From Escherichia phage JES2013, in the sequence record KC690136: 64,000 nucleotides of DNA. One strand, written 5' to 3'. Positions 28,934 through 64,000 of this stretch are shown here, piece after piece. Position 1 is the stretch's first letter, and the number at the start of each line of letters is the position of its first letter. The notes under the pieces are model-generated. The model saw nothing but the letters and a program-made list of their open reading frames with translations, was not told the origin of the DNA and searched no databases. Made by a program: the position numbers and the translations under genes.

Positions 28934-29095
28934 ATCTGGTGCACGATTGCATACCTTGGACAGATAATCTCCTTACAGAGCGTTTAAGAGCTTCCTACAA
29001 ACAACTCTCTTTTTCGAGCGTAGCGAGAACGCACGTCCGTTTTGACCAAAATCACCATACGCTCGGATTTTAACCAAACCCTCGCGGCGTTTCTG

Positions 29096-29124
29096 TTGAC
29101 ACATTGCCGCTCCAGTGATAATAT
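29096..29124 (+). promoter_or_regulatory. sigma70-type promoter
   Basis: TTGACA (29096-29101), 16-17-nt spacer, GATAAT/TAATAT. Confidence 0.5.
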
Positions 29125-29144
29125 CCACACATCATTTGGAGAAT

Positions 29145-29246
29145 ATGGAATACACAATGAAAACATTGTCCGAAGTTTTAGTGGTGATCCTGATGATCAT
29201 TACGTCCATAGCGGCTGTTGCCGGAATACTCACGGGTGGAACATGA
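29145..29246 (+). CDS. small hydrophobic peptide (33 aa)
   Basis: GGAG RBS then ATG 29145; MEYTMKTLSEVLVVILMIITSIAAVAGILTGGT. Confidence 0.35.
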   Translation: MEYTMKTLSEVLVVILMIITSIAAVAGILTGGT

Positions 29247-29455
29247 TCAACACACATGCATCTGAAGAGACATCAAAAGGAGTGACTATATGTCCCTTGG
29301 CTGAGCCAGTGAAAGAGGAAAACTTCGATTCTGAAGATTCTCCATCTTCGCTCCAGGTAGACCCTGAGGCTGATGACCTAACGTGGGAAGACATCGTAGA
29401 TATCTGGTTCTCTGTTATGCCTGAGCACGAAGAGTTCAGGGGTGGTAGACTATGA
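29243..29455 (+). CDS. small acidic protein (70 aa)
   Basis: Internal ATG of track ORF 29042-29455; the upstream part overlaps a promoter and the small peptide gene. Confidence 0.3.
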   Translation: MINTHASEETSKGVTICPLAEPVKEENFDSEDSPSSLQVDPEADDLTWEDIVDIWFSVMPEHEEFRGGRL

Positions 29456-29495
29456 AGCACCGAGCCCACACAAGTTCCTCATGCTAAAGCATGGC

Positions 29496-30682
29496 CTGAA
29501 GAGGCAAACGTGCATAATTCCTGTGCATCGGAACGTATGAAACCTTGTTCACACTCTCATTTCCAGAGGAGATTTTATGAAGATAGAAATATTTGGTGGA
29601 GCTGACAACACTCGTGGCCTGATTTACCTTGAATTCGATGAATCATACCTACCAGAGGTGTTAAATATAGACTCTGTTGCGGAGGCTTTGGGAGTAAACC
29701 CTAAAGAACTCCACTCTTGTGCTGAGATCGATGGTTGGGAAGAGACCATGAACATTGATTTCAGTGAAGTAGAGGATGAACCGCTGGACTGACACACAAT
29801 TAGCTGCCCGGCTAAAGTGCTGGAAGCACCTATAACACATCTTTCAACTAAATTTCCCACCACAACAATCACTTACCTCCCATACATGACTGTTTGCTTG
29901 TTTAGTGAGCAGTCATGCCTTGACATTCTTGCCTATCCTGATAAAATTAAGTTCTTCTCTTTTCTTTTACCGAGTAATTCGGGTTTTCTGTTCTCTTCGG
30001 TTTGAAGGGGTATGGAGATACACCTGAGTGAACAGGGTGAACAACCGAACATTTGGCTATGGCATTAGCATGGCGAAGCGGACGGGTGACGAAAGAGGGG
30101 CCGGAGGACACCAGTCACTGCCATATGGTATATGGGTGATAACCTGAAGAGTCTGAATAAGTGTTTAAGTACCAGTCAGAGGAAAAGGTGAATGGTAGCC
30201 GAAGGGGGAGGGGGGTTTCTTGTATCTTTAATTTGTATATTATGTATACACTTGTAAACCAATCTCATTTGAATTTGTTTACCACACAAAGTGGATAGAG
30301 ACAAATATTACCTATTAAACTTGAATTATTTATAGAAAATACCACAACACTACTTAAGTCTTTGATTTTACACACAAATCCTGCAGATATTCACCCTCCA
30401 TATTTAACATACTTGTAACATATTCCATACTCTACCTGCCCGATCAATTCACCCAACTACATCCCCATATTTTCCCTGTCTGTACTACCCCTGCCCCGCC
30501 GGGAGTCCCGTCATATCTGGCTTTCCAGCAAATATCACACCCACAAATATCATTGCCTGAAGAGGGTTTCGTCCCATAATACATGCCTTACCTGAAGAGC
30601 GCTTCATATACCCCGTAAATTTTTTAATTGACCCCCTCCCCGCCGCCGGAGGGGTCGGCTTTTCCCACACAGACCTGAAGAG
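29496..30682. repeat. five dispersed copies of 9-mer CCTGAAGAG
   Basis: Exact copies at 29496, 30143, 30556, 30591, 30674. Confidence 0.5.
29577..29792 (+). CDS. small acidic protein
   Basis: GAGGAG RBS; MKIEIFGG start; last gene of the + block. Confidence 0.5.
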   Translation: MKIEIFGGADNTRGLIYLEFDESYLPEVLNIDSVAEALGVNPKELHSCAEIDGWEETMNIDFSEVEDEPLD

Positions 30683-31210
30683 TCAGCCAGAAATATCTGA
30701 ATGGACCCAATTCTGCCCTGTTATGAGCCGTAGCGACTGGAGTGCTGCCAGGCGGACGAAATGGGAATACTTCTCATTCTTATAACAATTCTCAAATATC
30801 GAGGCAGTGAGGCAAATTAATAGGTAAGGCCGTTCACATAGTGGCACAACATTTGCAGTCTATCTGATGTGGTTGAATGAGAATACCTATCATTGTGAGA
30901 ATAGTTATCATTACGGGCAATTTAACATAATACCCATTATGCGCACCACTGGCGATACATACAGGGATTGATAACATGAGTTACTGTTTACGCATATAAC
31001 AATTATATTTCTTATCATTTGTGTGGGATATAGTTAGCAGCCGATAGATTAGATATTGACCTGCGGACTTCTGACCGTCTAGACGTCTAAACGCCCACAC
31101 AACAAGGCTTATACATACATCGCTGAATGTAAACATGGCCGCAAAAATGCTACCATACAAGATTGTAAATTTTTCATGCAGCACTTGACAAAGAGGAGAA
31201 AAACTTGTCT

Positions 31211-31440
31211 GACACTTTAGACATACTGGTGACACAATATGACACTTTAGACTTAATTGACATGCCTGACTGTTTACGCTGTCACTATTCGCGCTATTAC
31301 TATTCACTCCCTTTACTGTTCACGCTCTTACTGTTTACATGCTTAATGGTTTACATGCTTAATAGACTGCATGTCTAATAGTTTACATAGCTAACTGTTC
31401 ACATACTTATCATTTACATGATTGACTGTTTACACAGAGA
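31211..31440. repeat. iteron-like array: GACACTTTAGAC x2, about 8 copies of TGTT(T/C)ACA, 16-bp tandem GTTTACATGCTTAAT
   Basis: Direct repeats read in sequence (31211-31222, 31241-31252; 31273-31435). Confidence 0.55.
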
Positions 31441-31447
31441 TGATAAG

Positions 31448-31731
31448 CCATGACATTCGTTTGCATGACAATAATTAACAAGATAACAATTGACAAGCTA
31501 ACAGCCAACAAGCTGACAATTAACTTGTTTACAATAGATGACATAATATAAAAGCAGGGCAACTATTAGAAGATCTATAGTTGCCTTGCTTGTTATGTCA
31601 TGATTAACTAAATACAAGGCAACTATGATCTGATTAATAGTTTGCAAACAAACTATCACGGGGGTGATGGTTACTGCTTTTATATTATGTCGCGACTCCG
31701 TCGCGCCATGCCATTCGTTTGCATAGTTGCC
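31448..31731. repeat. GGCAACTAT inverted/direct repeats and duplicated GCCATG(A/C)CATTCGTTTGCAT
   Basis: Palindrome GGCAACTAT-N10-ATAGTTGCC (31558-31586); further copies at 31618, 31723; 19-bp repeat at 31448-31466 and 31706-31724. Confidence 0.5.
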
Positions 31732-32340
31732 TTATTGTTACAGATAAAATAATTGTATTGTTAATTATTTCTTATCTTTCTATTAGTCATCTAATGATTC
31801 CAGTCAATATAGTAATGTACAGTAAACATTAGACGACTAAAGATTTATCTGCTTATAATAACTTACCGTGACAATTTCGGACTGTTTACGAAAAATGTTG
31901 GCACCTAAGCTGATTTATGTTATGCAGTTTACACGAATAATTATTTTATGCAGGTATTGACTATTCCATTATTCTATGGTTGGAATAAATACTTAGCAGA
32001 CTATAGAATGGTGAGCGTACGTAAATTCTGAGATCTGGCGGCTATAGTTATACTCGATTTTTCACGTAGAGCACGCTTTTGTGGTTATGTAAGTGTATGA
32101 CTTATAAAGATTTTTAGTTGTTGACAAGACACTGAAGATATGCATCAGGTTAAATTTTGTGCAATAGCTGCATTACGTGCAATTTTGGAAGGAAAAACGG
32201 GTAAAAATAGCCCTGCTACCACACAATGAAAAGTTATGCAATAGTTATTTTACATGTATATTTGTACAGTGTGTGGGGTTGATGGCTCGTCAATTATTCC
32301 ACTTGCCAGGTAGGGCCGTTTATGGTAGGGGGAAGATCAG

Positions 32341-32367
32341 ACAAAAAGAAAGGGGCCTAAGCCCCTT
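32341..32367 (-). terminator. intrinsic terminator ending the - strand block
   Basis: Minus strand: AAGGGGC-TTAG-GCCCCTT followed by TCTTTTTGT, just after stop of 32386-32805. Confidence 0.65.
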
Positions 32368-32385
32368 GATAATTCAGTTAAAAAA

Positions 32386-32805
32386 TTATAATGATTCGTA
32401 TATTTCAAAAATCCGATTTGCCAGGTCGTTACGGTACCGGAATTTTTCATCACGTTTGATCATAAGATCTTTATAGCCGTACTCTTTAAGCACTTCATTA
32501 ACTTTATGGCGGCACACCTTCATATTATCCTGAGCGTCACCAATAAACCTGTTGCTATGGTGCATGGCTTTAATTTCTTCTTCCAGGACCAGGGCAACTA
32601 TGCGGACCGGATCAAGCTGATAGGCGGTAACATCAATGCGGCATTGTAAACGGCTTTTTACGTCTGCCACCGGATATACTGCAACCTCTTCCCCGTCAAC
32701 ATTGACAATAATTAGTTTACCATCGATTTCGAATCCTTTCGCCGCCGGACCGTGACAAAAAGCGTTATCAAAGCTATATGCCGGATTATTAGATTTAATG
32801 TTCAT
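32386..32805 (-). CDS. hypothetical protein
   Basis: Track ORF; AGAGGTAAAAACACC RBS; last gene of - block. Confidence 0.5.
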   Translation of the reverse strand: MNIKSNNPAYSFDNAFCHGPAAKGFEIDGKLIIVNVDGEEVAVYPVADVKSRLQCRIDVTAYQLDPVRIVALVLEEEIKAMHHSNRFIGDAQDNMKVCRHKVNEVLKEYGYKDLMIKRDEKFRYRNDLANRIFEIYESL

Positions 32806-32854
32806 GGTGTTTTTACCTCTTAGTTAATTTTCTTACAACTTCCCTTTAAAAAAG

Positions 32855-32883
32855 AATATAGCAAAACTGCCGATCCTTGTCAA
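32855..32883 (-). promoter_or_regulatory. sigma70-type promoter (minus strand)
   Basis: Minus strand TTGACA (32883-32878), 17-nt spacer, TATATT (32860-32855). Confidence 0.5.
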
Positions 32884-32950
32884 TAAGGATAGCATAATTT
32901 TTATGTGATCAAGGGGCTTTATTGCCCCCCTGACCATGTAACTTGTTGTA

Positions 32951-33214
32951 TTATTTGTTATTCATCCAGTTTTCCCAAGCTGCCTGATAATCTGCTTCAC
33001 TGCGGCGGATCTCTTCTTGCTCTTCAAGTCGGATCTCTTCTTCCAGGTACCCCAGGATATCGGCTTTTTTGGTCTGGCGTAACATCCAATCATCTTTTTT
33101 ACGGGTAAAGATCTTATATGCTTTCTCGCAAACCTCTTTTTTGCTACCTTTTTGGACTTCAAGAACTTTGTAGGCCATGTACTGAACTAGTTTGAGCTGA
33201 TCAAGACGTTTCAT
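32951..33214 (-). CDS. hypothetical Lys/Glu-rich protein
   Basis: Track ORF. Confidence 0.45.
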   Translation of the reverse strand: MKRLDQLKLVQYMAYKVLEVQKGSKKEVCEKAYKIFTRKKDDWMLRQTKKADILGYLEEEIRLEEQEEIRRSEADYQAAWENWMNNK

Positions 33215-33274
33215 GATGTTTACCTCTTTATGCGGTTCTGATTAGTGGGCCTTTTGGCCCGTGTCATTATCTTA

Positions 33275-33547
33275 TTACTTATGGCGGCAGAATTCAAGCG
33301 TTTTTAATTGATAATCTTCCTCAGCCTGGAGTACGACCGCCTCGATCATTTCGTTGGCATTGTTAAAGCCATAACCTTTAGCGAAATCATCCGCGCCACC
33401 TTCGTGATCATGTTCTGCGTTCATCGCTTCCACAAAATGGAATTCCAAATTGTTGAGGTAGGGGCTTGATGTTCCGTCCTCTTTTTCGATGAGATCCCAA
33501 ATAGCATTAAAACGTGATTCTACTTCTTGATTAATCCAGCTTGACAC
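33275..33547 (-). CDS. hypothetical acidic protein
   Basis: Track ORF. Confidence 0.45.
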   Translation of the reverse strand: MSSWINQEVESRFNAIWDLIEKEDGTSSPYLNNLEFHFVEAMNAEHDHEGGADDFAKGYGFNNANEMIEAVVLQAEEDYQLKTLEFCRHK

Positions 33548-33758
33548 AGTGTTTTCCTCTCTTCTGGTTGTTGTGTGGGCACTTTTGCCCCTTCAAGATA
33601 AATGTTACCCCACCCCATGGCAGATGTCAACGGTTTTTATAGTTCTTATATGACAGGCAGGCCCGGTGATTGTCTCCCCCCGTCGCCAGGTGCCTGCCGT
33701 GAAACAAGTATAACAAAAAACAGGACCATTGCAAGCCCTGTTTTGTAGTTTATAAATA

Positions 33759-33950
33759 TTATATTTTTTCGCCTATGTAGTCCGGTCGGTTTTTCTCTGT
33801 CATGCGCTTTAGCAATTCTTGCATGTTGCTTATGGCTTGTAGTGTATCCCCTTCCAGGCTTGAATCGACATAATCAGGATCGTCTATGACCTTTCTATGA
33901 TTATGATAACGCAGTACCGCCAATACCTTTCTGACTTGTTCGATATTCAT
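33759..33950 (-). CDS. hypothetical small protein
   Basis: Track ORF. Confidence 0.4.
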   Translation of the reverse strand: MNIEQVRKVLAVLRYHNHRKVIDDPDYVDSSLEGDTLQAISNMQELLKRMTEKNRPDYIGEKI

Positions 33951-34099
33951 TTTTACCGCTCTTTAAAACAAGGTGCCAACCGTTTCCAATAGATCACTGA
34001 CTGCCAGGACAATACCGATCAGCACATATCTAACCATAAGGGGAAAGAGCGCCAATATTGCCACCACAATCCCCAAGGTGATAATTATCTTTCTCATGG

Positions 34100-34393
34100 T
34101 TAACGGTTCACGTAAGTTTTCCCGTTCACGGTTATGGGCAGATCCTCCAGGTCTGGATCTTCCTTAAGGTCGCGAGCAAGCTCACCGCACCGGATACCCT
34201 CGAATCCGTAGTACTCTGTTGTGCCGTCCTTAAAAGTTTTAGCGGCAAGGCATAAGCGATAAGTAACCCCGATTTGATTGACGGCATGAATATCCGTTAG
34301 ATTAACCTCTTTTGCCAGCTCTTTAGCCATTACAGGCGCATTAAGTCCAACAACCAGGGCAACCACTGCGATCATCTTTTTCATTGTGTCCAT
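34100..34393 (-). CDS. secreted/periplasmic small protein
   Basis: N-terminal signal peptide MKKMIAVVALVVGLNAPVMA. Confidence 0.5.
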   Translation of the reverse strand: MDTMKKMIAVVALVVGLNAPVMAKELAKEVNLTDIHAVNQIGVTYRLCLAAKTFKDGTTEYYGFEGIRCGELARDLKEDPDLEDLPITVNGKTYVNR

Positions 34394-34475
34394 CCTCTTT
34401 CTGCTACGTTTAAGGCGGCGGTAACCGCCTGTTTATGCTTTGTTGGTTAATTTTCGGGTATAGGTATAAATTAAA

Positions 34476-34691
34476 CTATGCTGTACGCTCAACTATAACA
34501 ACGGCTTGAGGGATCTCACCTTCAACCACTATCAAGGCTTTTTTCTGCGTGATAGATATCTTTACCCGCTTCAGCGTGGCGGTAAAATCTTTCATTTCGT
34601 CACGTGGTGTTTTAGTGCAATACCAGATCTCAGGCTTGCCGATCTGTAAGTTGCGTAAAAATTCTGTTTTGCCTGTTTTGTTAGTGATCAT
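34476..34691 (-). CDS. hypothetical small protein
   Basis: Track ORF. Confidence 0.4.
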   Translation of the reverse strand: MITNKTGKTEFLRNLQIGKPEIWYCTKTPRDEMKDFTATLKRVKISITQKKALIVVEGEIPQAVVIVERTA

Positions 34692-34700
34692 TTGGCAACC

Positions 34701-34805
34701 TCACCCGATACCGTTGGAAGACAAGATCGCATTAGCCATGGTTGCAATCAGGCCAATACCCAGGGCAATAACCAAGATCACTGCATCGATTAATTTCTGT
34801 TTCAT
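34701..34805 (-). CDS. small hydrophobic peptide (34 aa)
   Basis: ATG at 34805; single TM helix; weak RBS. Confidence 0.25.
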   Translation of the reverse strand: MKQKLIDAVILVIALGIGLIATMANAILSSNGIG

Positions 34806-34882
34806 GGTGTTTATTCTCTTCTGTTAGTAACCTTATTCATGGGGCCGCTACCACAGCCCCAAGGTAAGGCAGCTATGTGCTT

Positions 34883-35128
34883 TTAGTGTTTCATTCCAAC
34901 CATCGCGGCACGGATCGCCGTAGTGCTGTACTTGAAGCCGTCCGGGGTCTTATCTTGTCCGGTTAGCTCCAGAAAAAGCATCATATCCCGCGCCGCATCA
35001 TTACGATTAGCATTGGCGTTAATAAAGCCTTGGGCCAACCGGTACAATGACTCATCGTTATTAATCCAAAGGCTTACATTCCAATGAGTTTTGTTTTTGT
35101 AACCGTTATAACCTTTATTGCTTTTCAT
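34883..35128 (-). CDS. hypothetical protein
   Basis: Track ORF; AGAGGTAAACACC RBS. Confidence 0.45.
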   Translation of the reverse strand: MKSNKGYNGYKNKTHWNVSLWINNDESLYRLAQGFINANANRNDAARDMMLFLELTGQDKTPDGFKYSTTAIRAAMVGMKH

Positions 35129-35219
35129 GGTGTTTACCTCTTCTTTGTTCCAGGTGGCGGATCATTCTACCACCTTATGTATTATGCTTTGTTAGATGGT
35201 TGTTTGTTGTCAAACTATT

Positions 35220-35399
35220 TTACCGATAATCATCATATGCTTTATTTACCTGGCGAATATAACATTCAAAAGCCAAATCAATAGATTTATATTCACGGAT
35301 ATACTCACCATAGGAAACCACATACATTTCTATAGCTTCCTCATATGCGAGGAGAATAGAATCTAAGCCTACGATCTCAGTCTTTGCAATAATAGCCAT
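35220..35399 (-). CDS. hypothetical small protein (59 aa)
   Basis: AGAGGA RBS then ATG 35399; just under the track's 60-aa cutoff. Confidence 0.4.
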   Translation of the reverse strand: MAIIAKTEIVGLDSILLAYEEAIEMYVVSYGEYIREYKSIDLAFECYIRQVNKAYDDYR

Positions 35400-35475
35400 G
35401 ATTTTTTATCCTCTTTGTGGTTGGTGGGGTTCGTTGCCCCCTTTGATTTATATATTACAGTCTTATATGGTCATG

Positions 35476-35709
35476 TCAACTATTTTCAAAAAATTTTTCT
35501 GCTGTGATATTCTTCCCGGTAGGGTTCGCTACTTTCAAAATTTTATCATGCACTGGACGCCCAAAAGAATAAGCGCCGTACACAGTAAACCAATAATCGC
35601 CGTCAGGTTGTACTATTACTGCCGCATATGGTACGCCTTTTTCGTTTTTGCTGACAAAATAGATCACGTTGCCATTAATAGCCTCGGCGCGTTTAATTTG
35701 TTCCATCAT
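35476..35709 (-). CDS. hypothetical protein
   Basis: Track ORF. Confidence 0.45.
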   Translation of the reverse strand: MMEQIKRAEAINGNVIYFVSKNEKGVPYAAVIVQPDGDYWFTVYGAYSFGRPVHDKILKVANPTGKNITAEKFFENS

Positions 35710-35765
35710 GATGATTTGCCTCTCTTTATTTTCATAATTGGGGGGCCTTTTCGGCCCCGCCAGGT

Positions 35766-36116
35766 TTATTTATTGATAGCGTGCAGCGGGAAAGGTACGC
35801 CAGGTTGATAGATAACCTTTACAACCTCATCAGGACAAAAGAAGTTGCAGAACTCACCGCAATAGGCCTCATCCTCTTTCAACTCTTCATCAACATACTC
35901 AAAAAAGTAGTCGATGCTTGGATAATCTTGACCAGGGTTATAATCAACCATAGTGAGGACCAGTTCAAGATCATTGCGGATGATATGCATACCAGCTTTT
36001 AAATACTTCGCTTCCATTTTTACTACATCGCCAGCGGTAACAATAGCCATGGTTTTAACTCCTGTTTCTGTTAATGATTGGAGGCATAACCCCCCTCGAC
36101 AACTCTTATTATCCAT
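35766..36116 (-). CDS. hypothetical protein
   Basis: Track ORF. Confidence 0.45.
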   Translation of the reverse strand: MDNKSCRGGLCLQSLTETGVKTMAIVTAGDVVKMEAKYLKAGMHIIRNDLELVLTMVDYNPGQDYPSIDYFFEYVDEELKEDEAYCGEFCNFFCPDEVVKVIYQPGVPFPLHAINK

Positions 36117-36275
36117 ATTGTAGGGCTTGATGCAAGTACTTCTTTAAAAAATTTTTAAGTGCCTTGGAGGCCGCTGTAACGCCAAAATAATAAAGGCCAT
36201 GCAACCGCATAGCCTTTATGTGATTATATCGCTGCAGGCCCTGCTAGGGGCCTTATTTTGCATCATTTGCCGGAA

Positions 36276-36584
36276 CTATACAGAGAAAACATCGTTCACA
36301 ATAGCGATCACAATGCCGCCCACCTTGTCACGGTCAACAATGCACAAATCACCATAGATCATGTGGTAGTCTGGATGATCTTTCACGGAATAGTCAATGA
36401 GCGTTTTCTTGTCGTCCAGCTTTGTAACTTCCATTCTCATAACGATATGAGAATCATCAAAGGCATTATTCCGAAAAGTCATAGCCTGACCACCAGGGCA
36501 CCCAGTGATCTCCACTTCCACACCGTCTACGATCTGACCATCAAAGAAATAAAGATTATTAGCCAGGATAAACATGTTTATCAC
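36276..36584 (-). CDS. hypothetical protein
   Basis: AAGGAG RBS before ATG 36584. Confidence 0.5.
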   Translation of the reverse strand: MINMFILANNLYFFDGQIVDGVEVEITGCPGGQAMTFRNNAFDDSHIVMRMEVTKLDDKKTLIDYSVKDHPDYHMIYGDLCIVDRDKVGGIVIAIVNDVFSV

Positions 36585-36623
36585 TCCTTGTTAACTGCGT
36601 GTTATTTTACCACGATTAAAATT

Positions 36624-36668
36624 TACTTTACTGATGGCCCTGGCGTCAAGGCCATCTAAAAATAAATT
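36624..36668 (-). repeat. 45-47-bp repeat with hairpin GATGGCC...GGCCATC, copy A
   Basis: TTTACTTTACTGATGGCCCTGGCGTCAAGGCCATCTAAAAATAAA; directly after stop of 36668-36868. Confidence 0.6.
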
Positions 36669-36868
36669 TACAGGCCTACAATCTCTTTGATTCGTTTAAC
36701 TGCTGCCTCAGCGCCTTGGGGGTAGAAATTATGGTAACCGATCACGCGAGTGATACTAATCGCAGTTTGATGATCTTCATAATAGCCCTTGAAGATTTCT
36801 TGACCGTCAATCAGCACGGCAATTTTTTCTTCTTTTTTGAAGTTAATAACGCGGATATTGTTGCTCAT
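36668..36868 (-). CDS. hypothetical small protein
   Basis: Track ORF. Confidence 0.45.
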   Translation of the reverse strand: MSNNIRVINFKKEEKIAVLIDGQEIFKGYYEDHQTAISITRVIGYHNFYPQGAEAAVKRIKEIVGL

Positions 36869-37009
36869 TTTGTTTCTCCTTTCTGGTTTTTGTGTTGGTG
36901 GGGATTAGCTCCCCGTTGATTATTATTATCCATATTTCGGACCGGATTGCAACACCCCGGAAGAAAAATTTTTTGAAAAAGTTAGGCCCCCAGGGATCGG
37001 GGGCCGTTA

Positions 37010-37129
37010 TCAGTTACTTACAGCGATAAAATACATCCCTACGCCTAACAATATTTCAAGGGCGATGATCTCAAGCCATACCATAACCCGGCGCACCTTA
37101 TCGGTGCGGGGCTTATCCTTGGTTGTCAT
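37010..37129 (-). CDS. small membrane peptide (39 aa)
   Basis: GGGGGAG RBS then ATG 37129; C-terminal TM helix. Confidence 0.3.
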   Translation of the reverse strand: MTTKDKPRTDKVRRVMVWLEIIALEILLGVGMYFIAVSN

Positions 37130-37371
37130 CGTCTCCCCCTTTCATCCTGGTAGTAGTGACGTGGTTTACAATGGCCCCCAGGAGTACCATCACCACGCAC
37201 ATCACAAGAAAAATTATCTCTGTCGTTGTTCGATCCATTGTTATAAAATTCCTTAAGATCAGGCCTGAAAATAAAGCGTTCGTTATTGAATCCATCACGC
37301 CAGGCGGCTGGCTTCAAATCTTCATCAAAGGGATTAATTAACGTGGTATTATTTAAACGGCTGGCCCACAT
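37126..37371 (-). CDS. hypothetical Asn/Asp-rich protein
   Basis: ATG 37371 (internal to track ORF 37126-37389). Confidence 0.35.
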   Translation of the reverse strand: MWASRLNNTTLINPFDEDLKPAAWRDGFNNERFIFRPDLKEFYNNGSNNDRDNFSCDVRGDGTPGGHCKPRHYYQDERGRR

Positions 37372-37720
37372 ATTTTCTATTCCTCTCAAATAGGCGATCC
37401 GCCTCAGTTAAACAAATCTCATGGGCGTGATCTCTGGTTTTAGCTTCATCGAAAACCTGTTGTGCAAGGCTGCAGCGTAGGGAGACTGGAAGATCACTAT
37501 AATAGGCGTTGACAAATGTTTGCGCGTCATACAGGTCGGAAAATACTTTACCCTTTCTATTATCGCCTTTGTCAACAATTGCAAGGATAACAAGTACAAT
37601 AGTTGCAACCACCCCCAGGAAAATAGATATAATAAACCATAAAAAGGCGGATCTACCCATCTTGCCAGCGATCCAGGCGTTAAACAAGGCAACTAATACG
37701 GCCAAAATAATAAATTCCAT
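37349..37720 (-). CDS. membrane protein (two TM helices)
   Basis: AAGAGGT RBS then ATG 37720 (MEFIILAVLVALF). Confidence 0.5.
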   Translation of the reverse strand: MEFIILAVLVALFNAWIAGKMGRSAFLWFIISIFLGVVATIVLVILAIVDKGDNRKGKVFSDLYDAQTFVNAYYSDLPVSLRCSLAQQVFDEAKTRDHAHEICLTEADRLFERNRKYVGQPFK

Positions 37721-37784
37721 TCTATGTACCTCTTTTGCAGTTCTGTTTAACAATAAGGCGGCAAATATGCCGCCTGTTACCTGA

Positions 37785-38165
37785 TTAAAAATTATCGCCG
37801 TAAATCTTTCCGCTTTCTGCCCACACCACCACGCGGGGCATACTATCCCACACGTCTTGTTTTAGATTGAGCGCGTGCAATTCTTCGGTGGTGCCCATAC
37901 CAGGCACGGGCTGATTGTATACTGCAAAACGACCACCTGCATAATCATAGGCCAGGGTTAAATCACACTGAATCATCTTTTTGATCATGGCGTTGAGCAT
38001 AGCGTTAGCCGCATACTGGTCACGTTTTAAAGGCAACTCTTTGATTAGTTTGCGATAGTTTTCAATGTGATCGCACACTGTTTCACGTGGAAGATCTTTC
38101 ATATCCTCGCGAAAGGTAACCAGGTTAAACATAACGGTGTCAATAGCTTTAGTAGTGTTTTTCAT
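37785..38165 (-). CDS. hypothetical protein
   Basis: AAGAGGAAAA RBS; 5' hairpin upstream. Confidence 0.5.
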   Translation of the reverse strand: MKNTTKAIDTVMFNLVTFREDMKDLPRETVCDHIENYRKLIKELPLKRDQYAANAMLNAMIKKMIQCDLTLAYDYAGGRFAVYNQPVPGMGTTEELHALNLKQDVWDSMPRVVVWAESGKIYGDNF

Positions 38166-38256
38166 AATGTTTTCCTCTTTGTTTTGTGTGGGGCAAACGT
38201 CTTGCCCCCCCTTGAGTTTTAATATAGCAAGTTTTTAGATTATTGCAACACTTTAT

Positions 38257-38880
38257 TTATGAAAAACTCATCTCTCCATATTCATCCACATCAAACCGCC
38301 AATCATTGGCCTCAATAAGGCCGATCAGGTTTTCGGTAGTGAACTGTTCTAGATAGGCCTCCTCCAGGTCTACGTAAACCTTGCGGGATAGCTCCCGTAC
38401 CGTCTCGGTGATCAGCTCTTCCAGGTCTTCCACTTTGTTTTCTTGTTTGGCGGTCAGATCTAGCCAGGTGGTATCAATGTATCCGCTTACAGTGTTTTCA
38501 TGGCTGTAATGGCTGTACTTGTCGCGTTCAATACTGGCTGATAACTCGCCATCGTGCATTGTGCCAAACAAGTGACGAATTGATCGGAACTTGGTCAGGG
38601 CCTTTACTTTACGCAAGAATTTTTCTAAATCCACGTTTTCAGCACTGATTGACGCGCCGTCACCCTGGCACCAAAAGCCGGACCAATGTACATCGGTATC
38701 TTCAAGGCCGTACTCTGGAAAAACTTGCTCTTTATAATATTCAATTACACTTTCTGCGAAAAAATCCTCTCCGCTGTGTTCTTCTCTTTCGCGGACCATT
38801 TCAATAGCTTTTTCTTTTTGTTCGTCGGTCAGCACGTCGAAAGATAAATTGCAACCTGTGGTAATGTTAACGGTGGTCAT
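38257..38880 (-). CDS. hypothetical acidic protein
   Basis: Track ORF; promoter and 5' hairpin upstream. Confidence 0.5.
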   Translation of the reverse strand: MTTVNITTGCNLSFDVLTDEQKEKAIEMVREREEHSGEDFFAESVIEYYKEQVFPEYGLEDTDVHWSGFWCQGDGASISAENVDLEKFLRKVKALTKFRSIRHLFGTMHDGELSASIERDKYSHYSHENTVSGYIDTTWLDLTAKQENKVEDLEELITETVRELSRKVYVDLEEAYLEQFTTENLIGLIEANDWRFDVDEYGEMSFS

Positions 38881-59715: not shown

Positions 59716-61015
59716 TTAAGGTCGGGGCAAGTTTGTAATAACGGAAGCCACCACCACCTTGCCAGTTTACAGACTTAGAAATACCACCTTGATCTTCCCC
59801 ATCGATCACTTTTTCCAAGCGCGGAATAATATGGGTATGGCAATGATCACCAATCTCGATGGAGATCCAACGTCTTTTCATCTTGTGAGCTACAGCGGCA
59901 GTAGTTCCCGAACCACCGAATGAATCCAATACCAAATCACCTTCTCGCGTACACATTTCGAAAATCCGCTTCAAAAGCGCTTCTGGTTTTTTCCCATTTT
60001 TGAAACTAACGCCGCCTTCATTTGCTATTCCATTCCAACTAATGTCTGTCCAAACATCAGTTATTAGTTCCGCAGGTTGCATATCACCGTCAATTTCCAA
60101 AAGCCTGTTGGAGTAAAAGACCATTTGCCTACCATTTGCGATATAAAATCCTTCAACATCCTCATTTGGATGTACATAAACCTTATCCCTATCTTTCTTT
60201 GACTTCTCTATAGTTTCTTTTCTCTTTATTTTAGCACCACCACCAATTGCAACAGATTGAAATACACGTTCTGCATTATCAATTGCAAATTGTGCTAATT
60301 CATCATCGAATGTGTCAGGCAGTTTTTTCTTGGCTTCTTTTGCATCTTTATAGCCATTGGCCTTTGCAAACGCATCGGCAATACCGCACCACGTCCAATT
60401 TTTATAATGATCATCCGGGTTTAATAGGTATTTGTTATATCCGGTATCATACCCTTTAGGTATATAGATTTTGTTAAGCGGTTTCTGGGTGCGATCTTTT
60501 GCATATACAAGCAAAAAGTTTGCTGTGGAGAAAACTGTGGCTCCTGTTGCCTTAAATCCCGAAGGGGAATTTGTGGTCATCGATATGGTATTTAACTGAT
60601 TTGCACGACCAAAAATCTCGTCCATCAAAACTTTTAAATACGCCATTTCGCAATCATCTAAGTGAACGAATATTACCCCGTCATCACTTAGAAGATTACG
60701 AATTATTTCTAACCTATCCCTCATTAAGCCCAACCAAATGGAATGCTCCAGACTATCATCGTAGTGCTCAAAAGCCCTCCCGGTGTTGAATGGTGGGTCT
60801 ATGTAAACACACTTCACTTTGCCTGCGTACTCTTGCTCTAGCGCCTTCAATGCTAATAAGTTATCTCCAAAAATCAGCTTATTATCAAAAATATCGTTTT
60901 CGGTAACTCTCTGGCTGTGGTAAGACTTACTCGAATCTTCTAACAAAATGTGCGGCTCTAATTTTTTGCGCTCGTTTTTACCTATCCAGGTAAGTTCTAA
61001 TTTGGTTTTGCTCAT
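59690..61015 (-). CDS. DNA methyltransferase, beta-class (N6-adenine or N4-cytosine)
   Basis: Motif IV DPPF (VYIDPPFNTG) precedes motif I FGGSGTT. Confidence 0.7.
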   Translation of the reverse strand: MSKTKLELTWIGKNERKKLEPHILLEDSSKSYHSQRVTENDIFDNKLIFGDNLLALKALEQEYAGKVKCVYIDPPFNTGRAFEHYDDSLEHSIWLGLMRDRLEIIRNLLSDDGVIFVHLDDCEMAYLKVLMDEIFGRANQLNTISMTTNSPSGFKATGATVFSTANFLLVYAKDRTQKPLNKIYIPKGYDTGYNKYLLNPDDHYKNWTWCGIADAFAKANGYKDAKEAKKKLPDTFDDELAQFAIDNAERVFQSVAIGGGAKIKRKETIEKSKKDRDKVYVHPNEDVEGFYIANGRQMVFYSNRLLEIDGDMQPAELITDVWTDISWNGIANEGGVSFKNGKKPEALLKRIFEMCTREGDLVLDSFGGSGTTAAVAHKMKRRWISIEIGDHCHTHIIPRLEKVIDGEDQGGISKSVNWQGGGGFRYYKLAPTLIAKDKSDQ

Positions 61016-61076
61016 CGTTTGGTGCTCTCCTTAGTTTTTTGTGGGGAGGAGGCCTCCCCTTTATACTCACATCTTA

Positions 61077-61418
61077 CTACTCAAGGTCTTCAGAGTCAAG
61101 CTCAAAAAGAATCAAACTGTGCATGCCTGCAGAGAGATCAACACACCCTGCAACAATAAGGGTCTGATAGTAAGGTTCAGCACCCTCGATGTCTTCGTTA
61201 AAATCCACAACAAGGTAGTCACCTTTGTTAAAGGTGTATTTGTCCGATGTGAATGCAAAACCTGCCCAGTCCCCTACTGCAGGATCTTTATCAGTCACCT
61301 TTGTTAGCAGTAGATCTTTTTCACGAGATCTTTTAGTAAAATCGTGAATCACAACATCCTTCTCTTCAGGAGTTGGATTGCCACACACGTAGTTAACGAT
61401 ATTTCTCCACAAACTCAT
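61077..61418 (-). CDS. hypothetical protein
   Basis: Track ORF. Confidence 0.45.
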   Translation of the reverse strand: MSLWRNIVNYVCGNPTPEEKDVVIHDFTKRSREKDLLLTKVTDKDPAVGDWAGFAFTSDKYTFNKGDYLVVDFNEDIEGAEPYYQTLIVAGCVDLSAGMHSLILFELDSEDLE

Positions 61419-62785
61419 ACGTCCCCCTCTTCGGCTCTGGTTTCAAAATCTTTCCTGACAATTTTGTCTAAGTCAGGGAATGTTGTATTGTAAAACTCTA
61501 CGACTCGCGGGTCAACAATAATGTCAACTTCTCTTAGTGGACGCAACAAGTTTATTCCTTGTATTGTCTTAACTCTGCTCAAAGCGACATACGTCATCCC
61601 AGGAGAGAAAGCTCCGTTCTTTCCAAGGTCTAGGTTGTAACAATCTAGCGTAAGTCCTTGACTTTTATGAGATGTTACGGCGTACCCAGATTTCAGAGGA
61701 AGTTGCTTGTATGACCCAATCACTACCCTCTCTATAAACTTCTCCATCTTCCTTTCTGCAATGTTGTATCTCTGAGATGGCTTATACTCGTTATTCTCCC
61801 ACAACCTCTGCTCTATGTCAACCTGTGTTCCATCTTCAAGCTCTACCACCACCGCCTTGTTCTTAAATTTAACAATTGTGGCACGTGTTCCGTTAACATA
61901 ATAAGGTACTTTGTGCGTCGGGTCAACATCGTTGGCGGTTATCATAACTTTCATGCCAATTTTCAACTTCATCTCCTGCTCAACTGGCAGGGTGGAGGGA
62001 AACTTACCCTTCATTTCCCCAGTGTATACCTTCTCCGGGGCGTTGATGGCATCATAGAACCTTCTGTTCACTTCCTCTGCTTGTTTGTTGGTGGCGCAAA
62101 TTGTGAGAGCGTCTGTTGGTACACCGCCTTTGTAACAGCGAGCATTAAGTTCTGCTACAACCTCTTTTATGCGACGACCCTCACGAACACAGTTGAGCAT
62201 TGTGGCAAATCGAATAGACTCCTGTCGGAACTGATCTATTAGGGCTATGTTGTGGAGGTCAAGCTCTTTCCAAGATTCGGTATAGCAACACAGGTCTGTA
62301 TGGTAGAAGTTGAAGTAGGCTTCCTTCTCCATAGAAGAGACAACAGGAGGTGCCTGGTAAAAATCGCCAAACAATATGACCTGTATGCCTCCGAAAGGTT
62401 TGTCATTTTTTCGAAGGAAGCGAAGTTTCCTATCCATCTCTATAAACTTATCAGCACGGATCATAGAGATTTCATCGATAATCAGGATGGTAAATGCCTT
62501 GCTTTTCAAAGGCTTTGCTGTTTTTGCCCTTATTGCGGTCCAGTCTGACTCCATGCTCACACCTGCTGCAAGATCGAAGGTTCGGTGTGCTGTTGCTCCA
62601 TTAACGTTTAAAGCGGCTACCCCTGTCGGGGCAACCGTTATGCAAGAGTCTCCATACATTGACTGGATCATGTTGATGAGGTACGTCTTCCCACAACCTG
62701 CGGGTCCTGAAACGAAGACATTCTCACCGCTCATGATTGCAACGAGGGCAGCATCTGTGCCTACATCATACTGCCCTTTTTCCAT
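61415..62785 (-). CDS. SF1 DNA helicase (Pif1/RecD/Dda-like)
   Basis: Walker A GPAGCGKTY; Walker B IIDEISM; C-terminal SQGLTLD. Confidence 0.7.
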   Translation of the reverse strand: MEKGQYDVGTDAALVAIMSGENVFVSGPAGCGKTYLINMIQSMYGDSCITVAPTGVAALNVNGATAHRTFDLAAGVSMESDWTAIRAKTAKPLKSKAFTILIIDEISMIRADKFIEMDRKLRFLRKNDKPFGGIQVILFGDFYQAPPVVSSMEKEAYFNFYHTDLCCYTESWKELDLHNIALIDQFRQESIRFATMLNCVREGRRIKEVVAELNARCYKGGVPTDALTICATNKQAEEVNRRFYDAINAPEKVYTGEMKGKFPSTLPVEQEMKLKIGMKVMITANDVDPTHKVPYYVNGTRATIVKFKNKAVVVELEDGTQVDIEQRLWENNEYKPSQRYNIAERKMEKFIERVVIGSYKQLPLKSGYAVTSHKSQGLTLDCYNLDLGKNGAFSPGMTYVALSRVKTIQGINLLRPLREVDIIVDPRVVEFYNTTFPDLDKIVRKDFETRAEEGDV

Positions 62786-63990
62786 TACGCCTCCTCGTAA
62801 AGAATGTCGATAGTGTTACCGTCTCGGTCAACCACGTATTCAATCGGGTCTCCGTCCTTGCGTGCTTCCGGAGCTACCACAATCTCATAGCGGCATGCAC
62901 GGCACTTAGCGCTATTGTGTTGGTATGGCACACTAACCACATCTGCAGGGTCAACCATGACAGTCATTACAGTGCCGTAGCTCTTCGCATACTCTTTGCT
63001 GGCGCAGTGTAAGCCATAGGAGCACGCAGCTTCAGGATCATCCTCTACAAAGTTACGAGGCATGGATACAAAAGCACCTTGGTATTGTGGGACTTTACCA
63101 CTGTGCCAATCCACCCACTTGCTACCGTTAAACTGAACCCCTTTGTAGCAAATGATTCGACCATCTTCTGCAATCTGAATATCATTGGCCTGCATAAAAT
63201 CGTAGAGCATGTTTACAGATTTTGCAGAAGGATTGCGTAGCAGGCGAACGAGGAATTTCACATAGCGGTCATCCAGCGTTCCGTCTGCATAATCTTTCTC
63301 AATTTTCTTTGCAATGGTGGATCGCATCTCTACACCGTAGTAGTAGAGCTTACCATCTTTCATGATCAGGTTGTCTGCAAGTGTGGTGAACTCATTCTTG
63401 CGTTCCAGCCAGACAAGGATTTCACCAATTGCCTCGTCATATTCCTGAACAGAGATATGGTCGAAGACTTTCTGGTAAACTTCCTCACTTTCGCTGCGGC
63501 GAATTTCAAAAATGCCTTCGTTGCAGGTGATCTGGAGGAGTTCACCACAAATAACTACCAAAGGCTCGATGCTTCGAGTCTGTTGCTGAGACACACTGCT
63601 CACCACCTCCAGCACCGGATCTTTGACTTCTACTAAAGGTTCTTCTGACTTGATTGCTACCCCAGTGAACCCCACACCGTGAACAACACACAGTGGGTAT
63701 ACCACGCCCCAACGTTTAACGGAACCTTCGCCTAAATCTAAGATCATAGCGTACTTACCGTTATCTTCCAGACCGTATCGAAATAAACGGGCCTCTTCGC
63801 GGGTTTCAAAATCCTCACGGGTGTAGCAGACGCTGTCACGGTCAGGATCGAACAACTCTGGGGCACCAACTGCCAGTGTCCAGGTTGTGTCGCCTTTCTC
63901 AATGGCACATGTGAAACCCTTCTTCTCAAGTTCTGCACGGCGGTCTCGTGCTTCTTTACGGGTTTTGAAATGTTCGTAGATGAAAATCAT
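62785..63990 (-). CDS. hypothetical protein (401 aa), first gene of replication block in window
   Basis: GGAG RBS 6 nt before ATG 63990; no motif recognised with confidence. Confidence 0.5.
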   Translation of the reverse strand: MIFIYEHFKTRKEARDRRAELEKKGFTCAIEKGDTTWTLAVGAPELFDPDRDSVCYTREDFETREEARLFRYGLEDNGKYAMILDLGEGSVKRWGVVYPLCVVHGVGFTGVAIKSEEPLVEVKDPVLEVVSSVSQQQTRSIEPLVVICGELLQITCNEGIFEIRRSESEEVYQKVFDHISVQEYDEAIGEILVWLERKNEFTTLADNLIMKDGKLYYYGVEMRSTIAKKIEKDYADGTLDDRYVKFLVRLLRNPSAKSVNMLYDFMQANDIQIAEDGRIICYKGVQFNGSKWVDWHSGKVPQYQGAFVSMPRNFVEDDPEAACSYGLHCASKEYAKSYGTVMTVMVDPADVVSVPYQHNSAKCRACRYEIVVAPEARKDGDPIEYVVDRDGNTIDILYEEA

Positions 63991-64000
63991 CTTGGTCTCC

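What the first reader, a model, noticed from the sequence alone, without database searches (positions are those of the whole stretch)
31211..31440. Iteron-like array (TGTTTACA repeats)
GACACTTTAGAC occurs twice (31211, 31241). About eight copies of (C)TGTT(T/C)ACA follow at roughly 15-30 bp spacing, including a 16-bp tandem GTTTACATGCTTAAT x2. This is the classic architecture of a replication origin or a regulator-binding array.
Basis: partly seen in the sequence, partly recalled or inferred. Interest (0 to 1): 0.65.

Follow-up and report, generated by a model that had tools for sequence, protein, structure and literature searches.

The report
Repeat array beside phage terminal repeat
The flagged repeats are real and sit exactly at the inner edge of the 459-bp terminal repeat of an rV5-like E. 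coli phage, so they are more likely a protein-binding platform for genome-end processing than a classical replication origin, although no experiment has tested either role.

Summary
The window is an rV5-like phage (Vequintavirus, identical here to O157 typing phage 4). The region holds two tandem arrays. There are about 5 TGACA units with a 10-20 nt period at 31210-31270. There are 11 units of 14-17 nt with core (C)TGTTYAC at 31262-31440, all on one strand. This cluster is unique in the window and in a complete relative genome.

Phages with defined ends (Gotham, EdH4, bov11CS3, Aya) place the 459-bp direct terminal repeat (DTR) at window 30751-31209. The arrays therefore start at the first base after the end-generating cut.

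Across 15 genomes the flanks are conserved, but the arrays vary from 133 to 237 nt (4-11 class-B units) while keeping the core. Related genera (KPP-1, ICP1) share the DTR-boundary sequences (KPP-1 both, ICP1 the right one) and a structured element in the same place. They have no arrays.

T7 and T3 show the same design, with CCTAAAG arrays beside their terminal repeats.

My best reading (confidence 0.4) is a multimeric protein-binding platform acting in end cutting and repeat duplication. An iteron origin (0.25) is not excluded, because ICP1 shows a late replication start in the homologous region. This is a new variant of a known kind and of moderate interest.

The parts
30751..31209 (.). Direct terminal repeat (DTR, 459 bp), present once in this collapsed assembly. 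The left cut is at 30750|30751 (…GCTGCCA|GGCGGACGA…). The right cut is at 31209|31210 (…AAAACTTGTC|TGACAC…).
   Evidence: Base 1 of Gotham and EdH4 aligns to 30751 and their last base to 31209. Gotham annotates repeat_region 1-459 and 136567-137025. Terminal repeats of 459 and 458 bp are reported in PMC7471380 and PMC6563267. bov11CS3 starts at 30751 and EcoIv14a_Aya ends at 31209. Length is invariant at 459-460 nt in 13 genomes.
31210..31270 (+). Class A repeats: TGACAYWWT-type units starting at 31210, 31230, 31240, 31258 and 31267. The first unit begins at the first base after the DTR. TGTC|T|GACA forms a small palindrome across the cut.
   Evidence: All 15 genomes read CTTGTC|TGACAY at the boundary and then carry 3-7 such units.
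31262..31440 (+). The last unit is TTGACTGTTTACAC (31421-31434).
   Evidence: TRF finds periods of 15 and 16. Families D1-D5 are, the segmentation and the information profile. Relatives have 4-11 units. The cluster is unique in the window and in Gotham.
31125..31138 (-). A single inverted copy of the class B core (CCATGTTTACATTC on the - strand), inside the DTR about 75 nt from the right cut.
   Evidence: match at 31128 on the - strand.
31447..31468 (+). Conserved box GCCATGMCATTCGTTTGCATGA, repeated at 31705-31724. The two copies bracket the class C array and the palindrome.
   Evidence: Direct repeat D11. Conserved in all 15 genomes.
31473..31535 (+). Class C array: 15-nt units AATTRACAAGNTAAC, 3.5-4 copies here and 0-6 in relatives.
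31540..31691 (.). Large branched palindrome. It has an 18-bp perfect closing stem and internal hairpins built from four alternating AAGGCAACTAT copies. It is the most conserved block of the non-coding region.
   Evidence: I1, I10, I21. DNA fold gives -46.8 kcal/mol with z -8.7, and RNA fold z -8.5. Mean identity is 97.9% against 95.5% for the neighbouring gene. KPP-1 has a counterpart with different sequence at the same distance from its DTR (z -9.7).
31741..31850 (.). The most AT-rich stretch of the region (24-30% G+C).
30760..30912 (+). Three copies of the dyad-like motif (A/T)(A/G)TG(A/G)GAATAnnT(A/C)TCATT inside the DTR (30760-30778, 30876-30894, 30894-30912). Related motifs occur in the terminal regions of KPP-1, FKP3 and ICP1.
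   Evidence: (D6, D8). Window to FKP3 gives E 0.008 and ICP1 to FKP3 gives E 2.6e-7. The tandem pair underlies the 34-nt 'repeat_region' annotated in naswa and magaca.
32350..32367 (-). Intrinsic terminator that ends the leftward gene block. It marks the right limit of the non-coding terminal region; a + strand terminator-like site lies at 29970-29982 on the other side.
   Evidence: A terminator is annotated at the homologous place in Gotham, EdH4 and Murica.

Best explanation
The array is a cis-acting, multi-copy protein-binding platform. It belongs to the non-coding 'terminal control region' of an rV5-like phage and sits exactly at the inner edge of the left terminal repeat.

Proposed mechanism: in the replicated concatemer, each junction holds one copy of the 459-bp repeat. 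A phage protein binds cooperatively to the same-orientation TGACA and TGTTYAC units. This could be the still unidentified small terminase or an accessory end-processing factor. The resulting nucleoprotein complex positions the cut or nick at 31209|31210 and helps the repeat to be copied, so that both daughter ends carry it. This is a T7-type mechanism.

Shown: the position, anatomy, uniqueness and evolutionary behaviour of the array.

Inferred: that a protein binds it, and that the complex acts in end cutting and repeat duplication.
For: 1. The array starts at the first base after the DTR right boundary, which was mapped with four independent end-defined genomes.
2. The boundary context AAAGAGGAGRAAAACTTGTC|TGACAY is invariant in 15 genomes.
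3. The cluster is unique in 64 kb and in a whole 137-kb genome. It is therefore a single cis site, not a dispersed regulatory motif.
4. Units share one orientation and a conserved core with free spacers. They cannot be coding, because total lengths (133, 139, 141, 164, 187, 190, 196, 206, 207, 211, 237 nt) do not differ by multiples of 3. They match no Rfam family and have no unusual fold (z -1.15).
5. The region is insulated from transcription by terminators on both sides.
6. T7 and T3 show the same design. T7 has its terminal repeat at 1-160 and a CCTAAAG array at 174-340. T3 has its repeat at 1-231 and then only 4-5 copies, so copy number varies there too.
7. KPP-1, a relative with conserved DTR boundaries, was assigned T7-type packaging by PhageTerm (PMC9862379).
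8. It is a general principle that terminase cuts next to a small-subunit binding site (PMC3896407; PMC11417361).
Against: - The arrays are absent from related genera that keep DTR-boundary sequences. KPP-1 keeps both boundaries and a single TTGACAGTTTACAC; ICP1 keeps the right boundary and has no array. An essential recognition element would be expected to persist.
- In ICP1 the packaging determinant shared with PLE satellites lies inside the 489-bp segment between the read-start peaks. That corresponds to the inside of the repeat, not beyond it.
- The array is the least conserved block of the region.
- The 15-16 nt period puts successive sites on opposite helix faces.
- Unlike T7, arrays flank only one side of the repeat.
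- No binding protein is known. The function of the T7 arrays is, to my knowledge, also unresolved.
Confidence: 0.4

Rival explanations
1. Iteron-type replication origin. A phage initiator binds the repeats, melts the adjacent AT-rich or palindromic DNA and starts replication. A variant is a late, rolling-circle-type start beside the genome end.
For: - Same-orientation repeats are followed by 30% G+C DNA, a strongly structured and highly conserved palindrome (z -8.7) and a 24% G+C stretch.
- The phage has a T7-like PolA and primase-helicase replisome.
- In ICP1 the closest homologues of the rV5 polymerase are found. There, late-infection coverage peaks at the homologous ORF-less terminal region and was read as a rolling-circle origin next to the packaging site (PMC7145576).
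Against: - No initiator gene lies next to the array, and no DnaA or IHF boxes lie in it.
- Copy number ranges from 4 to 11, and the arrays are missing in KPP-1 and ICP1, the phage in which the late origin was actually seen.
- The conserved palindrome is a better origin candidate than the arrays.
- The GC-skew minimum is near 99 kb and the ends are at the maximum. Both arms are transcribed towards the ends, as expected for forks arriving there rather than leaving. This is confounded with transcription, as the rV5 paper notes.
- The early theta origin of ICP1 is internal, near 60 kb.
Confidence: 0.25
2. Largely neutral expansion. One ancestral functional site (TTGACWGTTTACAC, and likewise TGACA) was amplified by slippage or unequal exchange in recombination-prone DNA next to the genome end. 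The extra copies are dispensable or only modulatory.
For: - KPP-1 has a single copy of the terminal unit at a comparable position.
- Three different arrays (A, B, C) fill the gaps between conserved blocks, and all vary in copy number between phages whose flanks are more than 90% identical.
- Differences between relatives are mostly whole-unit gains and losses.
Against: - The core stays conserved while the spacers drift (the core positions were partly fixed by my unit-finding rule).
- Every one of 15 genomes keeps at least 4 class B units and at least 3 class A units.
- T7 and T3 independently keep arrays at the same place.
Confidence: 0.2
3. Binding array for a transcription regulator or RNA polymerase. 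Examples are control of a small RNA that starts at the palindrome, or a sink for host polymerase through the -35-like TTTACA/TTGACA hexamers.
For: - Each unit contains a -35-like hexamer.
- A promoter-like site (TTAACT-16-TGnCATAAT, 31520-31547) and a terminator-like hairpin (31651-31672) bracket the structured element.
- In ICP1 a TGTTTACAC lies about 40 nt upstream of gp2.
Against: - No -10 element is correctly spaced from any unit (and inspection of the sequence).
- No gene lies downstream on the + strand; the neighbouring genes converge on the region.
- The motif is not found at other promoters in the genome.
- There is no Rfam match.
Confidence: 0.08

Closest known systems
Short-repeat arrays flanking the terminal repeat of T7-group phages (called SRL/SRR by Dunn and Studier 1983; that name is from memory, the sequences were checked here)
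   Same: - A short core (7 nt) is repeated in one orientation at a 12-17 nt period.
- The array starts within a few nucleotides of the inner boundary of a short exact terminal repeat. T7 has its repeat at 1-160 and its array at 174-340.
- Copy number differs between relatives: T7 has about 12 copies and T3 4-5.
- The array lies in promoter-poor, non-coding end DNA.
   Different: - The phage lineage is unrelated (a myovirus using host RNA polymerase) and the motif is unrelated.
- Arrays lie on one side of the repeat only. T7 has the same heptamer on both sides and inside the repeat.
- There are two or three different unit classes here.
- The repeat is 459 bp, against 160-231 bp.
- The function of the T7 arrays is itself not established, as far as I know.
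Lambda cosB (gpNu1 R-sites next to cosN) and pac sites with repeated small-terminase boxes (P1, SPP1, SF6); established knowledge, with the general principle quoted in PMC3896407 and PMC11417361
   Same: A set of repeated short sites lies immediately beside the terminase cut, at the start of the chromosome's left arm. Such sites are expected to assemble a multimeric DNA-binding protein.
   Different: - No binding has been shown, and the small terminase of this phage group is unidentified.
- The number of sites is unstable.
- The sites are absent in sister genera.
- In ICP1 the experimentally important 14 bp lies inside the repeat-equivalent segment.
Iteron origins (lambda ori, and P1, R6K or pSC101-type plasmid origins); established knowledge
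   Same: Direct repeats with a conserved core lie next to AT-rich DNA.
   Different: There is no adjacent initiator gene and there are no DnaA or IHF sites. The period is 15-16 nt rather than about 22 nt, so the sites are not helically phased. Copy number is variable. The location is at a physical genome end, at a GC-skew maximum.
ORF-less terminal region of Vibrio phage ICP1 (packaging site plus a putative late rolling-circle origin; PMC7145576, PMC11417361)
   Same: - It is a homologous region. A chain of local similarity links the window, FKP3 and ICP1 through the AATGAGAAT…ATCAT motif.
- The right-boundary sequences are similar.
- The read-start peaks are about 460 nt apart.
- A cluster of hairpins lies to the right of the repeat.
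   Different: ICP1 has no tandem arrays. Its flanking genes diverge from the region rather than converge on it. Its authors interpret its packaging as headful.

Membership tests
Iteron-type replication origin | Three or more same-orientation repeats with a conserved core | tested here: met
   11 class B units on the + strand.
Iteron-type replication origin | Repeats phased with the DNA helix (about 11 or 22 bp) and stable in number among close relatives | tested here: not met
   The period is 15-16 nt. Relatives carry 4-11 units.
Iteron-type replication origin | Adjacent AT-rich unwinding element | tested here: inconclusive
   G+C is 30-32% directly to the right. The lowest value (24%) lies 300 nt away at 31750-31849.
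Iteron-type replication origin | Cognate initiator gene next to or around the repeats, or host DnaA/IHF sites | tested here: not met
   No annotated or conserved ORF lies between about 30000 and 32386. There is no DnaA or IHF consensus in 31200-31850.
Iteron-type replication origin | Replication starts there (marker frequency, 2D gels, autonomous replication) | not testable with these tools
   Only indirect evidence exists. The ICP1 late coverage peak lies in the homologous region. The GC-skew maximum is at the ends.
Terminal-repeat-flanking short-repeat arrays (T7 type) | Array begins within a few nucleotides of the boundary of an exact short terminal repeat | tested here: met
   The DTR ends at 31209 and the first unit starts at 31210. 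In T7 the distance is 14 nt.
Terminal-repeat-flanking short-repeat arrays (T7 type) | Short core repeated in one orientation at a 12-17 nt period, with variable copy number between relatives | tested here: met
Terminal-repeat-flanking short-repeat arrays (T7 type) | The same motif arrayed on both sides of the repeat | tested here: not met
   To the left of the DTR there is only a dispersed and different motif, CCTGAAGAG, in 4-5 copies. T7 has CCTAAAG on both sides.
Terminal-repeat-flanking short-repeat arrays (T7 type) | Common descent with the T7-group arrays | tested here: not met
   The motif is unrelated and the virus family is unrelated (Vequintavirinae against Autographiviridae). This is an analogue, not a member.
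Terminase recognition site (cosB/pac type) | Lies next to the terminase cut | tested here: met
Terminase recognition site (cosB/pac type) | Conserved among phages with homologous packaging machinery | tested here: inconclusive
   The core is conserved within the genus. The arrays are absent in Mydovirus KPP-1 and in ICP1, and only one unit is shared with KPP-1.
Terminase recognition site (cosB/pac type) | Bound by the small terminase and needed for cutting or packaging | not testable with these tools
   The small terminase of this phage group is not identified (PMC11417361).

The most novel reading that the evidence does not exclude
Vequintavirinae, phi92-like phages and ICP1-like vibriophages may share one ancient non-coding 'terminal control module'. 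It would consist of a roughly 460-bp repeat with conserved boundaries, a dyad motif inside it and a structured palindrome about 320 nt beyond it. In this module, end cutting, copying of the repeat and the late switch of replication would be one coupled reaction. The Vequintavirus arrays would be a genus-specific, fast-evolving multimerisation platform that tunes this reaction, for example by setting specificity so that co-infecting relatives or satellites cannot use each other's ends.
Probability: 0.15. Interest if true: 0.7.

Novelty: new variant of a known kind. Interest (0 to 1): 0.45.

Why it matters
rV5-like phages are widely used in E. coli O157 typing, biocontrol and therapy cocktails, yet their packaging signal, small terminase and origins are unknown. 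The 2013 genome paper simply drew this region as a 'non-coding' box and assumed a circularly permuted genome.

Placing a unique, evolvable repeat array exactly at the terminal-repeat boundary gives a concrete, small target (about 230 bp) for three kinds of experiment: finding the end-processing protein, engineering packaging-competent vectors, and testing whether end processing and late replication are coupled as suggested for ICP1. It also shows that the T7-style 'repeat array beside the terminal repeat' layout arose in an unrelated myovirus lineage, which argues that the layout itself is functional.

Tried and rejected
- **Coding reading.** ORFs 31205-31378 (+) and 30981-31307 (-) overlap the array. 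I rejected them because array lengths among relatives differ by non-multiples of 3 and by whole 15-16 nt units.
- **Structured RNA.** There is no Rfam match above noise in 29500-32900. The array itself does not fold better than shuffles (z -1.15).
- **Sigma-70 promoter cluster.** The units carry -35-like hexamers, but none has a -10 at 16-18 nt.
- **Host-factor sites.** There are no DnaA or IHF consensus sites in the array, and GATC is depleted there.
- **More distant nucleotide relatives of the region.** A blastn 'distant' search found only the same genus.
- **IMG/VR scan for three phased GTTYAC units.** It returned 120+ unrelated hits, mostly giant-virus tandem repeats, and was uninformative.
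- **Link from the conserved AATGAGAATCATTC motif to the 14 bp shared by ICP1 and PLE satellites.** A scan of bacterial genomes gave only chance matches and no Vibrio cholerae hit. The PLE sequence is not in the phage collection and the 14-mer is not printed in the paper. This remains open.
- **Literature on the function of the T7 arrays, or on any origin or packaging site of rV5-like phages.** Nothing is held in the library. The T7/T3 comparison therefore rests on their sequences, which I read directly.
- **FKP3.** The start of its record carries an assembly duplication, so it could not be used to define ends.

Full report
**1. Observation.** The sequence at 31211-31440 is as described. GACACTTTAGAC occurs twice (31211, 31241) and nowhere else in the window without mismatch. 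The 16-nt tandem GTTTACATGCTTAAT is at 31333-31364.

The strict octamer TGTTYACA is present only three times inside the interval. Tandem Repeats Finder nevertheless reports arrays with 15- and 16-nt periods over 31269-31388. My segmentation gives 11 head-to-tail units of 14-17 nt from 31262 to 31440. Nine of them carry the TTYAC core.

Upstream, from 31210, there are about five TGACA-type units with a 10-20 nt period. The degenerate core RTTYACR occurs 9 times on one strand within 300 nt, whereas no other 300-nt stretch of the window has more than 2. In the complete genome of a relative the figures are 5 against 2. The feature is real and non-random.

**2. What the window is.** The 2 kb around the finding is 100% identical to E. 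coli O157 typing phage 4, and 90-95% identical to more than 110 rV5-like phages of the genus Vequintavirus.

The array lies in a stretch of about 2.4 kb without conserved ORFs, between two converging gene blocks. Genes on the + strand end near 30000, and genes on the - strand begin at 32386. Terminator-like hairpins lie on both sides. The 2013 rV5 paper drew this stretch as a 'non-coding' box, treated the genome as circularly permuted and found no origin.

**3. The missing context: the genome ends.** Later papers report terminal repeats of 458-459 bp for Vequintavirus phages Gotham, EdH4 and HdK5.

Aligning the ends of the Gotham and EdH4 records to the window places their first base at 30751 and their last base at 31209. 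Gotham annotates the repeat at both ends. Two further records agree: bov11CS3 begins at 30751 and EcoIv14a_Aya ends at 31209.

The direct terminal repeat (DTR) is therefore window 30751-31209, present once because the assembly is collapsed. The first repeat unit of the finding starts at 31210, the first base of the unique left arm. The boundary reads AAAACTTGTC|TGACAC, a small TGTC-T-GACA palindrome, and it is invariant in 15 genomes.

**4. Comparative anatomy.** In 15 genomes the last 20 nt of the DTR and a 22-nt box to the right (GCCATGMCATTCGTTTGCATGA) are conserved. The interval between them ranges from 133 to 237 nt. It always consists of 3-7 TGACA units followed by 4-11 TGTTYAC units in the same orientation.

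Among 58 distinct units, the positions flanking the core carry information (A at -3 gives 1.3 bits; T, C/T, T and G at -5, -2, -1 and 0 give 0.6-0.8 bits). Five spacer positions carry almost none. The caveat is that positions 1-5 were fixed or restricted by my search rule.

Block by block:

| Block | Length | Mean identity | Indels |
|---|---|---|---|
| DTR | 459-460 nt | 93.9% | none |
| Neighbouring gene (ORF164) | 420 nt | 95.5% | none |
| Block holding a 150-nt palindrome (31536-31740) | 205-238 nt | 97.9% | few |
| Arrays A+B | 196-237 nt in the 5 genomes this extraction could align (133-237 nt across all 15) | about 82% where alignable | many |

The arrays are therefore the fast-evolving part of an otherwise strongly constrained non-coding region, yet their core and their presence are maintained.

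**5. Other elements of the region.**
- Inside the DTR there are three copies of a dyad-like motif, TGAGAATAnnTATCATT.
- To the left of the DTR there are 4-5 copies of CCTGAAGAG.
- To the right of the arrays there is a second variable 15-nt array (0-6 copies).
- Next comes the palindrome at 31540-31691 (DNA fold z -8.7), bracketed by a 20-nt direct repeat.
- Beyond that lies the most AT-rich DNA of the region (24% G+C).
- No Rfam family matches, and there are no DnaA or IHF boxes in the arrays.

**6. Other genera.** Klebsiella phage KPP-1 (Mydovirus) has a published DTR of 514 bp and T7-type packaging by PhageTerm. It shows the same converging gene layout. Both DTR boundaries are recognisably conserved: …TGCTA|GACGGAC… and …GAATTGTGT|TTAGCAAT…. 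It also has a branched palindrome of different sequence at the same distance from the boundary (z -9.7). It has no tandem arrays. Only one TTGACAGTTTACAC matches the last unit of the window array.

Vibrio phage ICP1 has an ORF-less 1.3-kb terminal region. Its read-start peaks are at 431 and 891, which is 460 nt apart. Its right boundary resembles that of KPP-1, it carries related dyad motifs and it has a hairpin cluster. A chain of significant local similarity links the window, FKP3 and ICP1. ICP1 also has no arrays. The arrays are therefore a Vequintavirus-specific elaboration within a much older terminal module.

**7. Experimental anchor.** For ICP1, time-resolved sequencing showed an early bidirectional origin near 60 kb. 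It also showed a late coverage peak, read as a rolling-circle start, at the terminal ORF-less region next to the packaging site (PMC7145576).

A 14-bp sequence within the 489-bp segment holding the packaging site is shared with PLE satellites and is required for their transduction. The small terminase is unidentified (PMC11417361).

By homology, the terminal region of rV5-like phages probably carries both packaging and late-replication functions. The only mapped packaging determinant, however, lies inside the repeat-equivalent segment rather than where the arrays are.

**8. Analogue in T7 and T3.** Reading T7 directly, the terminal repeat is 1-160, followed at 174-340 by about 12 CCTAAAG units at a 13-nt period. 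The same heptamer lies to the left of the right-end repeat. T3 has only 4-5 copies after its 231-bp repeat. A short-repeat array of variable copy number abutting a short exact terminal repeat is therefore a recurring design in two unrelated phage lineages.

**9. Weighing the explanations.**

*End processing (0.4).* The exact abutment to the cut, the uniqueness, the uniform orientation, the maintained core and the T7/T3 parallel favour a protein-binding platform that acts in end cutting and repeat duplication. Its absence from sister genera, its poor conservation and the ICP1 mapping argue that it is accessory rather than the primary recognition site.

*Iteron origin (0.25).* The nearby AT-rich DNA, the palindrome and the ICP1 late start keep this reading alive. 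It lacks an initiator gene, host-factor boxes, helical phasing and stable copy number. The GC-skew extremum at the ends has the polarity of a terminus, although skew here follows transcription. If an origin exists in this region, the invariant palindrome is the better candidate.

*Neutral expansion of a single ancestral site (0.2), and a transcriptional role (0.08).* Both remain possible.

**10. Verdict.** This is a binding-type repeat array. Its defining property is its position at the terminal-repeat boundary, not a demonstrated origin.

It is a new variant of a known kind of feature, the terminus-flanking repeat array. I found no description of it for this phage group in the literature I could search. 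Interest is moderate: the mechanism is open but directly testable on a 230-bp target.

Noticed in passing
window 31540-31691 (block 31536-31740); L023 2839-3043: A 150-nt branched palindrome with an 18-bp perfect closing stem (fold z about -8.7) is the most conserved block of the non-coding region, at 97.9% identity, above the neighbouring gene. Klebsiella phage KPP-1 has a counterpart with different sequence at the same distance from its terminal repeat, so both arms changed together. It is a candidate origin, hairpin-priming or small-RNA element. A promoter-like site (31520-31547) and a terminator-like hairpin (31651-31672) bracket it.
   Followed up: partly
L145 (ICP1_2006_E) 431-891: The published read-start peaks of ICP1 (431 on the + strand, 891 on the - strand) are 460 nt apart. 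The 891 boundary (…GCAAGTTGT|TAAGCAATAAG) resembles the terminal-repeat boundary of KPP-1. ICP1 may therefore have a terminal repeat of about 460 bp like the rV5-like phages, rather than the headful packaging predicted in the paper.
   Followed up: partly
window 30760-30778, 30876-30894, 30894-30912; L145 755-806 and 1264-1280; L266 540-571; L023 2413-2432: A dyad-like motif (AATGAGAATA..TATCATT) recurs in the terminal regions of four phage genera (E 2.6e-7 for ICP1 against FKP3). In ICP1 it lies inside the 489-bp segment that holds the packaging site. It could be the packaging recognition element, but I could not check whether it is the 14 bp shared with PLE satellites.
   Followed up: partly
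window 29495, 30143, 30556, 30591, 30674: Five exact + strand copies of CCTGAAGAG lie in the 1.2 kb left of the terminal repeat. One of them (ACCTGAAGnGTCAGCC) is also conserved left of the KPP-1 repeat (L023 1698-1714).
   Followed up: no
window 31473-31535: A third tandem array (15-nt AATTRACAAGNTAAC) is present in 0-6 copies among relatives. In some genomes it is replaced or interrupted by a GC-rich hairpin insert (CGCTGGCTATGCCAGGTGACC…).
   Followed up: partly
window 59753-64000 and 28941-38300 versus KP869102: The deposited 'partial genome' of O157 typing phage 4 (141,707 bp) is not collinear with the window. Its segment just left of the region matches window 59753-64000, so the contigs of the record appear to be ordered differently.
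   Followed up: no
phage collection hits MG0656xx: About 19 records named 'Campylobacter phage' and flagged UNVERIFIED are 93% identical to this E. coli Vequintavirus region. They are probably mislabelled or contaminant genomes.
   Followed up: no
whole window; 29800-32400: GATC is frequent in the window (359 sites, about one per 178 nt) but depleted in the non-coding terminal region (5 sites where about 15 are expected). The phage carries DNA methylase genes.
   Followed up: no
L266 1-316 and 501-816 (Klebsiella phage FKP3): The start of the record contains a 316-nt duplication 500 nt apart. This looks like an assembly artefact of a terminal repeat.
   Followed up: no
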